The notes below the pieces were generated by a model that searched no databases, was not told the origin of the DNA, and saw nothing but the letters and a program-made list of their open reading frames with translations. From assembly GCA_964016885.1 (NCBI GenBank), contig OZ024741.1, positions 355,384,001 through 355,448,000 on the forward strand: a stretch of DNA of 64,000 nucleotides. Direction: 5' to 3'. Positions within the stretch are counted from its first letter, which is position 1; each line of letters begins with the position of its first letter. Shown piece after piece: positions 17,761 through 38,169 of this stretch. Origin of the DNA: Eledone cirrhosa. Taxonomy: Eukaryota. Both the position numbers and the translations under genes were made by a program.

Positions 17761-17813
17761 TCATGTCTCTCCCTTAATTATATTCCTAGCTATGTAGGTA
17801 GGTTCTTTTACAC
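17761..17813 (-). CDS. DSL-domain gene, terminal coding exon 6: (C)VKEPTYIARNIIKGET*
   Basis: Acceptor tttgtcccag|; the phase-1 T of exon 5 plus GT makes TGT, supplying the sixth DSL cysteine; stop TGA at 17763-17761. Confidence 0.65.
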
Positions 17814-18084
17814 CTGGGACAAATATATCTATGTATACAAATGCATATATATATATATAAATATATATATACTATATATACATATATACATATATACATA
17901 TATGTGTGTGTATATATACATATATATATATATTATATATATATATATAGTTAATAAATGAAACAAACAAAACACAGGAGGCAATTATATACAGTATATG
18001 TATATATGTGTATGTATATATATATATAAATATACATACACATACACACACACACGTATATTCATAAATATATATATATTATAT

Positions 18085-18392
18085 ATCATCATCATCATCA
18101 TTTTACGTCCGCTTTTCCCTGATTGCAAGGGTGGTACGGGAACTAATTCTGGCTTGATTTCTACAGCTGGATGCCTTTCCTAACACCAACCTCATTTACA
18201 GTGAGTGCTGGGTGCTTTTTTGCCATGGCACCTCCACGACCACTTTGCAGTGAAATGATATGGACTCCAGTCCTATCATCTCATTTCTACAGCTGAGTAA
18301 ACTGGAGCAATGTGAAATAAAGTGTCTTGCTCAAGGAAACAACACATCACCCGGCCTGAGAATTGAACTCAAAACTTTTCGATTGCAAGGCT
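18085..18392 (-). mobile_element. tRNA-derived CORE-type SINE with RTE-derived 3' tail
   Basis: Reverse-complement homolog of 30357-30693; the tail shares GATGCC.TTCCTAACACCAACCTCATTTACAGTGAGTGCTGGGTGC with the RTE 3'UTR. Confidence 0.8.
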
Positions 18393-19172
18393 GTATTTAT
18401 TGCATATATATATATATATATATATATATATATATATATATATGTATGTATGTGTACATACATACATTTAAGTATCAGCCCTACTAAGAGTGAGAAATGA
18501 AATTTCGTTTCATTCTTTTCCATTTGTATATATATATGCAATAAATACATCTTATATACATTCATAGTAATGTAGCTATGTTGCTTTACACCTGGTATAA
18601 ATCTCCAAGTTATTTATAGATTTATATGCACACAAACATGCACGCATACACACACACACACACACACACACACACACACACATACATATGTGTGTGTATG
18701 ACTATTTATGTATTTATGTACATATGGATTTTTCATATATTTTAGCCATATTGGAAATAAAAGAAAAAAACACAGAAAGCACACATATTTACTCGTCTAT
18801 CAACTCACGCATGCACATATTTACATACATATATACATACATATATATACATACATACACACGTACATATCAACATATATTCAAACATATATACTTACAT
18901 ACACACATACTTATCAACATATATACATACACATATACACATAAATACATACACTCATACTTATCAACATATATACATACATACATGCATACATACATAA
19001 CATAAATACATACATACATAACACCACCACCACTACTATCACCAACTAACATCAGTAGGCCATCCTGACAACCTCTCACAACCACAACCACCACCAGCAC
19101 CATTGCAGCCACTGTTATATATGAAGTTCTGTATTTCCTAATTGTGTTTATTTTAAACTCACTCATACTGGT

Positions 19173-34796: not shown

Positions 34797-35739
34797 ATTC
34801 TATATTTATTTAAAAACATTTTGAAGGCCTTTCACTATGAATTTAAGGTAGTGACTATAGTCACATACCTAGCTTCAGCAAAAACAAAGGGTTTTCAAAA
34901 TGTTTTAAAATAAACATGTTATTAAATATACAATACGTACATTAATAATAGTAATTACTTCTTTTATTGGCCACAAGGGACTTAAAAATGCTGGGGGACA
35001 ATGCAAGAACAAAGACAACATAGAGTGGGGTTTACATTGAGTAAAAGAAAGGGGACATCACCAGAGGGAAATCAGTAGGTATGATAATAACAATAATTGT
35101 AATAAATAGCCTATCTCGGTTTCCTTGGCGGGAAGTGACTGAGAGTACAAGACTACTCCCTGGACAGGATGCCAGTCCATCGCAGGGTTAAATCCACAGC
35201 TATTGCTGGTACTCATTTTCAGTTGAGTATACTGGAGCAATGTGAAATGAAGTGTTTTGCTCAAGAAGCACAACACACAATCTAATCTAATCTAATCTAA
35301 TCTGGCCGAGTTTACACTCGCAAATAAGAAGAACCAGAGCCGCCCCAGGAGCATTGGATTTAGTGTACTTCATATTTGTTTCAGTTGCTGAATACAATCA
35401 GGGGTCGCTGCTTCTCCTGAAAGTCAATAGTTCTCTTCTAACTCAAGCAGGAGTGCCTTTCCATTGTCAATTTGCATTGATCATCTGCAAAGCCGCATTG
35501 TTCTCAGAACCACTACACCAGTCTTTTGATGTGTGCAGCTGGAACTACTGCCACCCATTGATTTGGAAACACACAACGCAGTTCAGAAATTGAATCCACC
35601 ACATTATGATCATAAATCCAACACCCTTACCACTAGGCCATACACCTCCACTCTACTGGTTAGACCTGTTCAGGGTGGTACATGTTTGCACCTCCCCTAC
35701 CAGGGTAGGGGAGGCACACATGCCACCCCAAACATATCC

Positions 35740-37660
35740 ATCCATGAAAACCTCCACCTCATGCAATACATCATAGAGAAGGTGGCTAAGAAATCTGAGA
35801 CAGGTGGGGCCCTGATCAACTTATATCAATCGAAAGCTTTTCATAGGGTCCACCATTATTACCTGGTGGCAGTCCTCAAGGCAGCTGGTTTTAGACCTGT
35901 TTTCAGAGGATAGATCACTGCTATGCACAACGACATCTGCTCTGAAGTTAGAGCAAAAGGTTACCTTTTGGAACCAAACCATTCAACATTATGCACCCCG
36001 TCCACCAAGGTTGTTCCCTTCTTTTGTATTGACTCTCAAACCATTACTATACAAATTGGAGATGTTGAGGGGCATCCATCACAAACTAAGATGTGGGAGA
36101 TTCGGATTAGCATATGCCAACGAAGTCACTGTCGTAGTGTCAAACACCAAACACACTGTGGTGATTGACACTGCTCTCAGGGAGTACAAAGTAGTTACAG
36201 AAGCGAAAATTAACCAGGAAAAGTTGATGGGCTTGCAGCAGGTCCATGCTGTCAATCAACATCGTCAAGCACTGGATGGACAGACTGGTTAAAATGCTAG
36301 TGGTCTGGTTTGGACTGGACCTCTAGATGGACAAAAACTGGAATGAGATAATGAGCAGAGTGGCCTCTCTCACCCAGAAATTGGCCAAGAGGAAGCTATC
36401 CCTGAAAGGTTGGGCAGAGGTAGCAAGTGCATACACCATGTCCATAACTTACTACTGCCTTATCATCATGCTTTGTCCTGGTCCATGTCTGACTGAACTG
36501 AAGCTGTTACTCTTTTACTTTTTGTGGAAGGGACAGGTTCCACTGGTTAGGTGGTCCATTTGCTGTCAAGATCTGCTGTATGGAGGACTGGGCGTGCTAT
36601 GGCTGATAATGGGCAATCATGCACTGTGGCTATGACATCTCCAAATTTTCCTTGATAGTGAGCAGGCATGGTTGCTGAACTTGTTTTTCCTCAGCTCGCC
36701 TCCTTGATGGAACTGCAGTCATGGGTCAAGCGAAGGCCAACAGCGAGACTAGAATGACTTCAAGAGTTCACAGCCCTCTGCCAATCTAGCAGTGTGATTG
36801 GTGGAGACTCCACCTTGACATTCTATTGAGAGTTAGTGGAGGGTAAAAGTGATGACATTCTTGGGGAGCTCCTGAGCATCAATGATAATCAACTAGCCAA
36901 TCTTTTCCAGAGAACTTTTGATCCAGGACCTATGGATAATTTCCAGAAATTCCTGACATGGCAGTGCTACCAGGGAGCATTGCTAGTTCAAGATAAATTC
37001 TACAGGTATGGAAGTGCCATCAACCAGACTTGTCTAAGATGTGTGTAGTGTGACAAAACCATCCTTCACACACTTGTCAAGTGTCCGAGCATTGCTGACT
37101 TGTGGGCTTATGTACTGTCACATGTAGGATGGTTCTGGTTATCAGCTGAGTCTACCATGAAGATTTCCCTGCTGCCTTCCTTTAGCCGGAAAGAGCAGGA
37201 AGTTTTTATCTGCCGGGTGGCTGTGGCAAAAGAGGTTGTGAGATGGACACATCTGAAAGGGTTGAAACCAAAGCCCTGATCAACTTTTTCAGGTTTCATT
37301 TGAAGAGGAAAATCAGGGTGGAGAAGGAAGTGCTGTATTCCAAGCAGTTTGTTGAAAGATAGCCCTAGTGAATGAGTCTGCTCTAAGTGTGCACCTGTAG
37401 ATTGGAGGAGGACAACTGGGTGAGGGCACTTGACTTAGTGGTAAAAGTGACCATGGCTTTTTGTGAGCTTTCTCCATGTGTGACATTCGGAAGTCCCACC
37501 TATTGGGGAATTTATTTTGTTTGAATTTTTACATGTTTTTCCTTGTTTTTGTTAAAAACTTTTTACATACCAGAACCCACACTGTACTGTCCTGTGCTGT
37601 TCTTAATGTTTTCTTAATGTGAGCCCTGTGTGGCTCATAAAGAAACCCTTATTATTATAA
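35740..37660 (+). pseudogene. Decayed L1/Tx1-clade LINE (RT and C-terminal region)
   Basis: Fragments IHENLHLMQYIIE...INLYQSKAFHRVHH, AYANEVTV, RKLSLKG, FYFLWKG...GGLGV, CLRCV in shifting frames. Confidence 0.75.
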
Positions 37661-38133
37661 TTATTTGAAACTTCCATATTTTGCCAAGTGTTAAGCTGAC
37701 ACCTCAAACAAAATTTGGTAATAAACACATAAAATCAGAAATTATTATTATTATTATGGAGAAATTCATATCTTGAGTTAAAAATTAGTAATTTGGCCAC
37801 CACCCAGCTATCCTATCATTCAACAACACCACCACCTCCACCCGCCACTACGACCACACTAAAAATAAAGACATCAACGAAACAACGAAACAACCGTTAT
37901 TGTCACCACTAAAACAACCATCATGGCCATGACTGTCGCTGACTTGGTCTGTGACACCCTAACAAACCTTGCTAGCAGGGACCCCCAGACCCCATTTTAA
38001 ATGATGCTACTGATGATATAGGCTTAGGTTGAATTGACACTATGGTAAAAGAGACCCCCCCCCCCCTCCTCCCCACGCTGCCACTGCTACAGCTACCCCA
38101 CAAACACCACCAATACAACCAAAAAGATCTTAC

Positions 38134-38169
38134 CTGTGTTAAAAGTAGTAAATAAGTCCCTGTACCCAT
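38134..38169 (-). CDS. DSL-domain gene exon 1 (start codon, first part of signal peptide): MGTGTYLLLLTQ
   Basis: aaaacATGg context; strong donor CAG|gtaaga in phase 0; joined to exon 2 gives the hydrophobic signal peptide MGTGTYLLLLTQFVFIFG. Confidence 0.75.

What the first reader, a model, noticed from the sequence alone, without database searches (positions are those of the whole stretch)
17761..38169. Hidden 240-aa secreted Notch-ligand-like protein: signal peptide + MNNL/C2 + DSL, with no EGF repeats and no transmembrane anchor
Seen in sequence: six minus-strand exons (38134-38169, 33996-34206, 33336-33448, 23331-23504, 22058-22193, 17761-17813) with GT-AG sites and matching phases give a 723-nt CDS. 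All six DSL cysteines and the NYYG...FC motif are present, the last Cys being formed across the final splice junction, then a 16-aa tail and a stop. Established: canonical Delta and Serrate/Jagged ligands have EGF repeats, a TM helix and an endocytosed tail needed to pull on Notch; soluble DSL proteins are best known from C. elegans. Inference: this is a divergent diffusible Notch modulator (decoy, co-ligand or lipid-binding C2-DSL protein). The DSL loop lacks the usual PRDD..GH and GW residues (here DATKHQLSF and GS), so receptor specificity may differ.
Basis: partly seen in the sequence, partly recalled or inferred. Interest (0 to 1): 0.85.

Follow-up and report, generated by a model that had tools for sequence, protein, structure and literature searches.

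The report
Divergent membrane Delta-like gene, 24 EGFs
The supposed short secreted Notch-ligand-like protein is likely only the front end of a longer gene: beyond the window, on the same strand, lie exons for 24 EGF repeats and a predicted membrane anchor, and a candidate linker exon would add a furin-type cut site that could release the front end as a soluble piece.

Summary
Exons 1-5 are real: canonical splice sites, a DSL domain above Pfam's cut-off, and an orthologue fragment that joins exons 3-5 the same way. The headline 'no EGF, no anchor' fails at the locus. From 45 kb past the DSL exon, outside the window and on the same strand, 16 phase-compatible exons encode 24 EGF repeats, followed by a terminal exon with a transmembrane helix, a 26-residue tail and AATAAA. 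All 6 other divergent DSL loci examined also run into EGF exons. Best reading: a 1,237-1,263-aa type I membrane Delta-like protein whose DSL keeps only 1 of 5 Notch-contact residues. A candidate 78-nt exon would supply DSL Cys6 and the protein's only R-x-R-R furin motif, so a soluble head could arise by cleavage (about 25%). No RNA data were available, so the link is inferred from DNA. The C2/MNNL call was not confirmed by profile or fold.

The parts
38134..38169 (-). Exon 1: start codon and first half of a likely signal peptide, phase-0 donor
   Evidence: 1 of 8 candidates, best donor by eye; MNNL exons of paralogues also begin after an acceptor inside the signal peptide (by eye); no RNA support
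33996..34206 (-). Exon 2: end of signal peptide and first half of a C2/MNNL-like region (four Cys)
   Evidence: no Pfam, Atlas or profile hit; C2 identity inferred from position and Cys pattern
33336..33448 (-). Exon 3: C2-like region
   Evidence: 65% identity to P0004
23331..23504 (-). Exon 4: C2-like region
   Evidence: 55% identity to P0004
22058..22193 (-). Exon 5: DSL domain, Cys1-5; ends in phase 1 on the T of the Cys6 codon
   Evidence: Pfam DSL 34.5 bits; 73% identity to P0004
1..22057 (-). Likely intron, running off the window's left end. The rest of the gene lies outside the window on the minus strand of G000:C2: candidate linker exon 355372028-355372105 (Cys6, R-x-R-R motif); first EGF exon 355361282-355361410; 15 further EGF exons 355307101-355359170 (24 EGF repeats in all); terminal TM exon 355302820-355303037. 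A second copy of the whole gene lies at 355494609-355611664.
   Evidence: EGF and TM exons; linker; second copy; splicing across this interval is inferred, no RNA
17761..17813 (-).
   Evidence: acceptor and coding scores at chance level, no poly(A) signal within 1.5 kb
2607..2659 (-).

Best explanation
The five window exons are likely the 5' end of one ~120-kb gene for a type I membrane Delta-like protein, since the same strand carries, beyond the window, exons for 24 EGF repeats and a predicted transmembrane helix with a 26-residue tail. Shown in DNA: the DSL exon, the EGF and TM exons, canonical splice sites and an open frame of 1,237 aa (direct join) or 1,263 aa (with the linker exon). Inferred: that the DSL exon splices into the EGF chain. 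Likely working: the protein enters the secretory pathway and is displayed on a long EGF stalk, with a C2-like/DSL head at the tip. The head keeps only 1 of the 5 Jagged1 residues that contact Notch, the DOS repeats are missing and the tail lacks the known Mind bomb boxes and a PDZ end, so it is more likely a non-activating modulator (competitor, cis-inhibitor or adhesion partner) than a canonical pulling ligand. DSL Cys5 needs a partner, and the one internal exon candidate that supplies Cys6 also holds a furin-type motif; I put inclusion of that exon at about 50% and release of the head by cleavage at about 25%.
For: 16 EGF exons and a TM exon chain through GT-AG sites with no internal stop; 145 Cys = 24 x 6 + 1 (stop codon included). 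The first EGF exon starts in phase 1 with no start codon, and the DSL exon ends in phase 1. 6 of 6 other divergent DSL exons examined have EGF exons downstream on the same strand, 0.4-21 kb away. In the three-gene cluster at C2:90.9 Mb the first EGF after DSL scores best against EGF1 of this model in 3 of 3 (one a tie) and the second ranks EGF2 first, second and third among 24. The 44.6-kb interval holds only 1 signal-peptide-like first-exon candidate. AATAAA follows the TM exon's stop directly. Linker exon: the only Cys-starting one of 3 phase-1/1 candidates in the interval; controls gave 5 Cys-starting and 0 furin-motif candidates among 42 in 763,990 bases; single-copy, present in both blocks; only R-x-K/R-R motif in 1,263 aa. 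Contact residues from PMC3415683 set against alignments.
Against: No transcript evidence for any junction. The DSL-to-EGF link spans 44.6 kb, longer than any other intron of the model (next 14.1 kb), and phase agreement alone has a 1-in-3 chance. Exon borders were picked by eye to complete EGF repeats, so the open frame is partly built in. P0004 ends at the last full codon of the DSL exon; whether it is partial or stops there cannot be seen. The positional EGF matches have small margins and two of the three paralogues are 98% identical. The linker's thresholds were set after it was seen, a Cys-starting candidate is expected 0.29 times per interval by chance, its coding score is reached by 24% of intron windows, and the three clustered paralogues show no such motif at their DSL-EGF junction as read directly (their introns were not scanned for a linker exon). 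TM exons were not established for the paralogues.
Confidence: 0.78

Rival explanations
1. Two genes: a short secreted C2-DSL gene (ending by read-through of the DSL donor, which gives Cys-Lys-Tyr-stop, or in a small terminal exon) and a separate EGF24-TM gene whose first coding exon is the linker region, read from an in-frame ATG 31 nt before the linker's acceptor as a short signal peptide, propeptide and furin site.
For: That ATG has G at -3 and +4 and is followed by a hydrophobic stretch; read-through of the DSL donor completes Cys6; P0004 ends at the DSL exon.
Against: The hydrophobic stretch is the acceptor's pyrimidine tract read as codons and gives a signal peptide of only about 11-13 residues; three out-of-frame ATGs lie within 25 nt upstream; 6 of 6 paralogous DSL exons run into EGF exons.
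Confidence: 0.11
2. One reading: the main transcript ends in exon 17761-17813 and makes a secreted 240-aa C2-DSL protein.
For: GT-AG sites, matching phase, and the join restores Cys6; the piece occurs only at this locus, four times.
Against: One of 34 equally scoring Cys-giving acceptors, no poly(A) signal within 1.5 kb; lies in a rearranged local duplication between microsatellites; leaves a complete EGF-TM chain without a 5' end.
Confidence: 0.06
3. The gene is decaying or under relaxed constraint and no longer functional.
For: All 9 coding differences between the two copies (of 3,792 nt) change an amino acid; direct joining would leave DSL Cys5 unpaired.
Against: No stop or frameshift in either copy over 1,263 codons, all 144 EGF cysteines kept; the orthologue keeps the frame and the same DSL loop.
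Confidence: 0.05

Closest known systems
Delta and Delta-like ligands of lophotrochozoans (definitions in PMC5356439; passages read)
   Same: Signal peptide, N-terminal region, DSL, at least nine EGF repeats, TM helix and intracellular tail in that order.
   Different: 24 EGF repeats rather than nine, where the paper names loss of repeats as the commonest variation; no ATEV end; MNNL not detectable; no DOS-type EGF1-2; 4 of 5 contact residues replaced; candidate furin linker. Long EGF arrays in Delta are on record (0 to 75 repeats, PMC2770060, passages read).
Serrate/Jagged
   Same: More than 16 EGF repeats, DSL, TM.
   Different: No VWC domain: all extracellular cysteines after DSL but one belong to EGF repeats; no DOS.
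C. elegans secreted DSL-1 and EGF-less DSL proteins of bivalves and cnidarians (PMC3415683, PMC8166818, PMC2770060; passages or one section read)
   Same: A released C2-DSL head would act as a soluble DSL protein.
   Different: Here the gene likely encodes a membrane anchor; solubility would come from cleavage or a minor isoform. DSL-1 has one EGF repeat; the EGF-less DSL clade was reported only in bivalves among lophotrochozoans.
Divergent DSL paralogues in this genome (L007, L008, L010, L009, L011, L014)
   Same: Intron just before the DSL domain, EGF exons downstream; 28-38% DSL identity to this gene against 22-29% for the three canonical ligands.
   Different: Here the intron after DSL splits the Cys6 codon; three of those loci have exons over the MNNL cut-off within 12 kb upstream and a fourth 153 kb upstream, this gene has none.

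Membership tests
DSL ligand family | DSL domain with YYG motif | tested here: met
   Pfam PF01414 34.5 bits over cut-off 24.2; best PDB sequence matches of the orthologue are Jagged1, DLL1, Jagged2, Serrate (E 0.003-0.5)
DSL ligand family | Six DSL cysteines | tested here: inconclusive
Delta (PMC5356439 definition) | Signal peptide | tested here: inconclusive
   Hydrophobic N-terminus (19-residue hydropathy 1.62); no signal-peptide predictor available; exon 1 unproven
Delta (PMC5356439 definition) | MNNL/C2 domain | tested here: inconclusive
   No PF07657 hit; profiles: 393 of 500, 56 of 1000 and 150 of 1000 shuffles scored as high; fold model pLDDT 37.9, no Foldseek match. Length, position, beta-strand prediction and a four-Cys pattern like paralogue L122 fit by eye; Atlas features of P0004 score 0.94 to a DSL/MNNL cluster, probably driven by DSL
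Delta (PMC5356439 definition) | At least nine EGF repeats | tested here: met
   24 six-Cys repeats in the downstream chain; linkage to DSL inferred from DNA
Delta (PMC5356439 definition) | TM helix and intracellular domain | tested here: met
   hydropathy scan only
Canonical activating Delta | Notch-binding face F199, R201, R203, D205, F207 (Jagged1 numbering) | tested here: not met
   Only the first Phe is kept; the rest are replaced or deleted
Canonical activating Delta | DOS-type EGF1-2 | tested here: not met
   EGF1 matches ordinary EGF, not EGF_DL_JAG or JAG1-like_EGF2 at E<=0.5; EGF2 has ordinary spacing
Canonical activating Delta | Tail with Mind bomb boxes and ATEV/PDZ end | tested here: not met
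   26-aa tail with two lysines, neither box of Drosophila Delta as printed in PMC11887331, no ATEV; read by eye
Serrate/Jagged | VWC domain before the membrane | tested here: not met
   About 20 Cys-free residues between EGF24 and the helix; an unseen exon in the last 4-kb intron was not excluded
Secreted DSL ligand | No membrane anchor in the gene product | tested here: not met
   TM exon ends the downstream chain; short isoforms or cleavage not testable without RNA or protein data
Notch ligand (function) | Binds and regulates Notch | not testable with these tools
   needs binding and reporter assays

The most novel reading that the evidence does not exclude
A Delta-like precursor with a built-in release switch: a 78-nt linker exon completes the DSL domain and places a furin site (R-I-R-R) between the C2-DSL head and a 24-EGF stalk, so the Golgi clips off a diffusible ~220-aa DSL protein with a rewired, orthologue-conserved binding loop, and leaves a membrane stalk whose new tip, EGF1, is the most variable part between the two copies. 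That would uncouple the receptor-binding head from the endocytic pulling tail in a single gene.
Probability: 0.25. Interest if true: 0.65.

Novelty: new member of a known kind. Interest (0 to 1): 0.33.

Why it matters
As it most likely stands, this is a fast-evolving Delta-like paralogue of a kind already reported in lophotrochozoans, and a caution that windows cut long genes into false 'secreted' forms. It would matter more if the linker exon is real: canonical ligands must stay anchored to pull on Notch, and a ligand whose head is released by a convertase would be a natural soluble Notch modulator outside nematodes, testable with one junction read set and one cleavage assay.

Tried and rejected
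RNA: no RNA holder listed; the three runs laid on 17700-34300 cover introns, so they look like DNA and say nothing on splicing or copy number. Homologue searches: exon 2 against longer proteins found none; P0004 found only itself among 7 candidates; a three-EGF exon returned 687 generic EGF proteins, and none of the 120 listed exceeded 51% identity, so no full-length orthologue was seen. Atlas search of exon 2 gave no usable hit. Fold of P0004 with a four-row alignment was low-confidence and its Foldseek search empty; P0004 holds only half of the putative C2 domain and the full N-terminus could not be folded. A first exon scan was too permissive and was dropped. The idea that an extra Cys in EGF1 pairs with DSL Cys5 was weakened: the second copy has Arg there. 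An N-x-x-N motif in the tail resembles the Neuralized-binding motif (recalled, no call) but the second copy changes its last Asn. An alternative phase-2 donor and acceptor pair that would also keep Cys6 was seen by eye and not scored. Earlier scan notes: nothing found. No complex prediction was run.
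Full report
Coordinates. Places outside the window are given as window coordinates continued past its ends (genome position on G000:C2 minus 355,384,000), so negative numbers lie left of the window, downstream of the gene.

Observation. 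Exon 22059-22193 is a DSL domain by Pfam (34.5 bits, cut-off 24.2); exons 2-4 hit nothing. A search of 1.84 billion representatives with the DSL exon gave 35 hits; one, P0004 (133 aa, species not given), is 73% identical, the other 34 are 35-46% identical and each has two or more matched stretches. P0004 covers exons 3, 4 and 5 in order (65, 55, 73%), so these three exons and their junctions have independent support. It begins inside exon 3 and ends at the last full codon of exon 5. The window is G000:C2:355384001-355448000 of a 3.0-Gb animal genome; that it is an octopod is a recalled impression from size and repeats, not a test.

What lies outside the window. I fetched 200 kb on each side. 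A six-frame cysteine scan found EGF repeats on the minus strand from -22,590 to -76,899, that is 45-99 kb past the DSL exon. Reading the DNA gave 16 exons whose acceptors and donors are canonical and whose entry phases chain (1-1-1-0-2-2-1-1-1-1-0-1-1-1-1-1, then 1 into the TM exon), several EGF repeats being completed across introns. A hydropathy scan of the next 123 kb gave 4 candidates; the nearest, at -80,963, has a phase-1 acceptor, a helix scoring 3.42 (the others 2.08-2.23), a 26-aa tail that opens with a basic stop-transfer stretch, and a stop, followed by AATAAA at +1 and +27. Joining exons 1-5 to this chain gives 1,237 aa with no internal stop and 145 cysteines in the EGF part, 24 x 6 + 1. 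The borders were chosen by eye, so the open frame is not a fully independent test. The first EGF exon has no start codon and needs a phase-1 donor upstream; the DSL exon offers one.

Support from paralogues. Pfam DSL scored 27 places in the genome at E<=10, 12 over the cut-off. Besides this gene's two copies and four canonical-looking exons (two identical), six divergent DSL exons share an intron just before the domain. All 6 have EGF exons downstream on the same strand (for L009 only one weak repeat in 62 kb). In the cluster at C2:90.9 Mb, DSL is followed by two single-EGF exons as here; the first scores best against EGF1 of the model in 3 of 3 (one tie), the second ranks EGF2 first, second and third of 24. 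Margins are small and two of the three genes are near-identical. TM exons were not established for these paralogues.

With an acceptor matrix trained on 20 sites of the model it scores 4.8; 186 of 2,703 AG sites in the interval score as high and 34 would give Cys (16 are repeat copies); no poly(A) signal follows in 1.5 kb, while its twin has ATTAAA at 319, 1,107 and 1,318 nt. It lies in a small duplicated and partly inverted piece between microsatellites and occurs four times, all at this locus. It cannot be excluded as a minor end, but nothing singles it out.

The missing sixth cysteine. The DSL exon ends on the T of the Cys6 codon. A direct join to EGF1 gives Ser and would leave Cys5 unpaired; an extra Cys in EGF1 is not kept in the second copy. 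Of 3 internal phase-1/1 exon candidates in the 44.6-kb interval, one starts with GT: 78 nt at -11,895 to -11,972. It restores Cys6, adds 26 residues and contains R-I-R-R, the only R-x-K/R-R motif in the 1,263-aa model; R-X-R/K-R is the convertase site given in PMC2770060. It is single-copy apart from the duplicate block. Controls over 763,990 bases gave 42 candidates, 5 Cys-starting (0.29 per interval) and 0 with the motif. Against it: thresholds were set after seeing it, the coding score is unremarkable, and no RNA or second species could test it. The same stretch can be read from an in-frame ATG at -11,864 as a very short signal peptide, which is the two-gene rival; three out-of-frame ATGs just upstream argue against that.

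How it likely works. PMC3415683 lists Jagged1 F199, R201, R203, D205 and F207 as the Notch-binding face. Against Jagged1 and this genome's canonical ligands only the first Phe is kept, and the replacement loop is the same in P0004 over seven residues, which suggests a kept but different role. EGF1 is an ordinary EGF, not DOS-type. The tail has two lysines but neither Mind bomb box of Drosophila Delta (PMC11887331, passages) nor ATEV. I therefore read it as a surface-displayed, probably non-activating modulator or adhesion protein; this step is inference. If the linker is used and cut, the head would be released.

The duplicate. The whole region from about -85,700 is repeated about 190 kb on, mostly at 96-99.5% identity with different transposon insertions; a canonical Delta-like locus on C6 is likewise doubled. 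An uncollapsed haplotype is likely but untested. The two coding sequences differ at 9 of 3,792 nt, all changing amino acids, 5 in the EGF1 exon, whose flanks are also more divergent (23 of 604 and 9 of 600, against 0-8 elsewhere).

Comparison with print. PMC5356439 (passages) defines Delta as SP, MNLL, DSL, at least nine EGF, TM and ICD and reports lineage-specific Delta-like genes with varied domains. PMC2770060 (passages) gives 0-75 EGF repeats for Delta and warns that missing signal peptides or TM regions may reflect assembly or annotation. PMC8166818 (passages, section 10, a term search of text supplements) reports DSL expansion in lophotrochozoans and EGF-less DSL genes only in bivalves; one supplementary file could not be read and only the first supplement hits were seen, so this gene may be listed there. 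PMC12166595 (passages) notes frequent absence of detectable MNNL. Seven searches listed no title or abstract start describing this gene or a convertase-released DSL head; the library lacks most subscription papers and I read listings only for the rest, including 10.1101/2021.02.11.429991.

Verdict. The finding points to a real gene, but its headline is most likely a window-edge artefact. The gene is a new, divergent member of the known Delta-like kind (one-gene reading 0.78). The bold reading, a furin-released DSL head, stands at about 0.25 and is directly testable. Interest 0.33.

Noticed in passing
window 56846-57010 (+): Exon of the DNA polymerase delta catalytic subunit (E 3e-13 to PDB 6s1m), on the opposite strand upstream of the Delta-like gene.
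   Followed up: partly
window 4505-7627 (-), 39039-40979 (-), 41317-42957 (-), 61908-62894 (-): LINE-type retrotransposon reading frames (endonuclease and reverse transcriptase by eye); the 1,040-aa one looks intact, is 99.6% identical over 1.8 kb to the copy at 41013-42806 and is absent from the second block.
   Followed up: no
window 7900-16152: Tandem array with a unit of about 506 bp, about 16 copies at over 99% identity, apparently absent from the second block.
   Followed up: no
G000:C2:90870000-90980000 (L076-L095): Cluster of three divergent DSL genes followed by EGF exons, two with a long exon of 8-9 EGF repeats; two of the three are 98% identical at DSL-EGF2.
   Followed up: partly
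G000:C4:259830000-260160000 and C1156:35000-86121 (L096-L115, L119, L121, L123): Three more divergent DSL-EGF genes whose DSL is split by an intron after Cys5, with MNNL hits upstream; a further MNNL hit at C4:34804172 had no DSL hit nearby.
   Followed up: partly
G000:C6:93803354-93907911: A canonical Delta-like locus appears twice about 71-78 kb apart with identical DSL exons, suggesting that tandem doubling is common in this assembly.
   Followed up: no
L073:7282-7410 and its second copy at G000:C2:355549968-355550096: EGF1 exon differs at 5 of 129 nt between the two copies, all non-synonymous, in a locally more divergent stretch.
   Followed up: partly
G000:C2:355185750-355198369 and 355475339-355478906: Tandem arrays with units of 42 bp (12.6 kb long) and 48 bp (3.5 kb long).
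   Followed up: no
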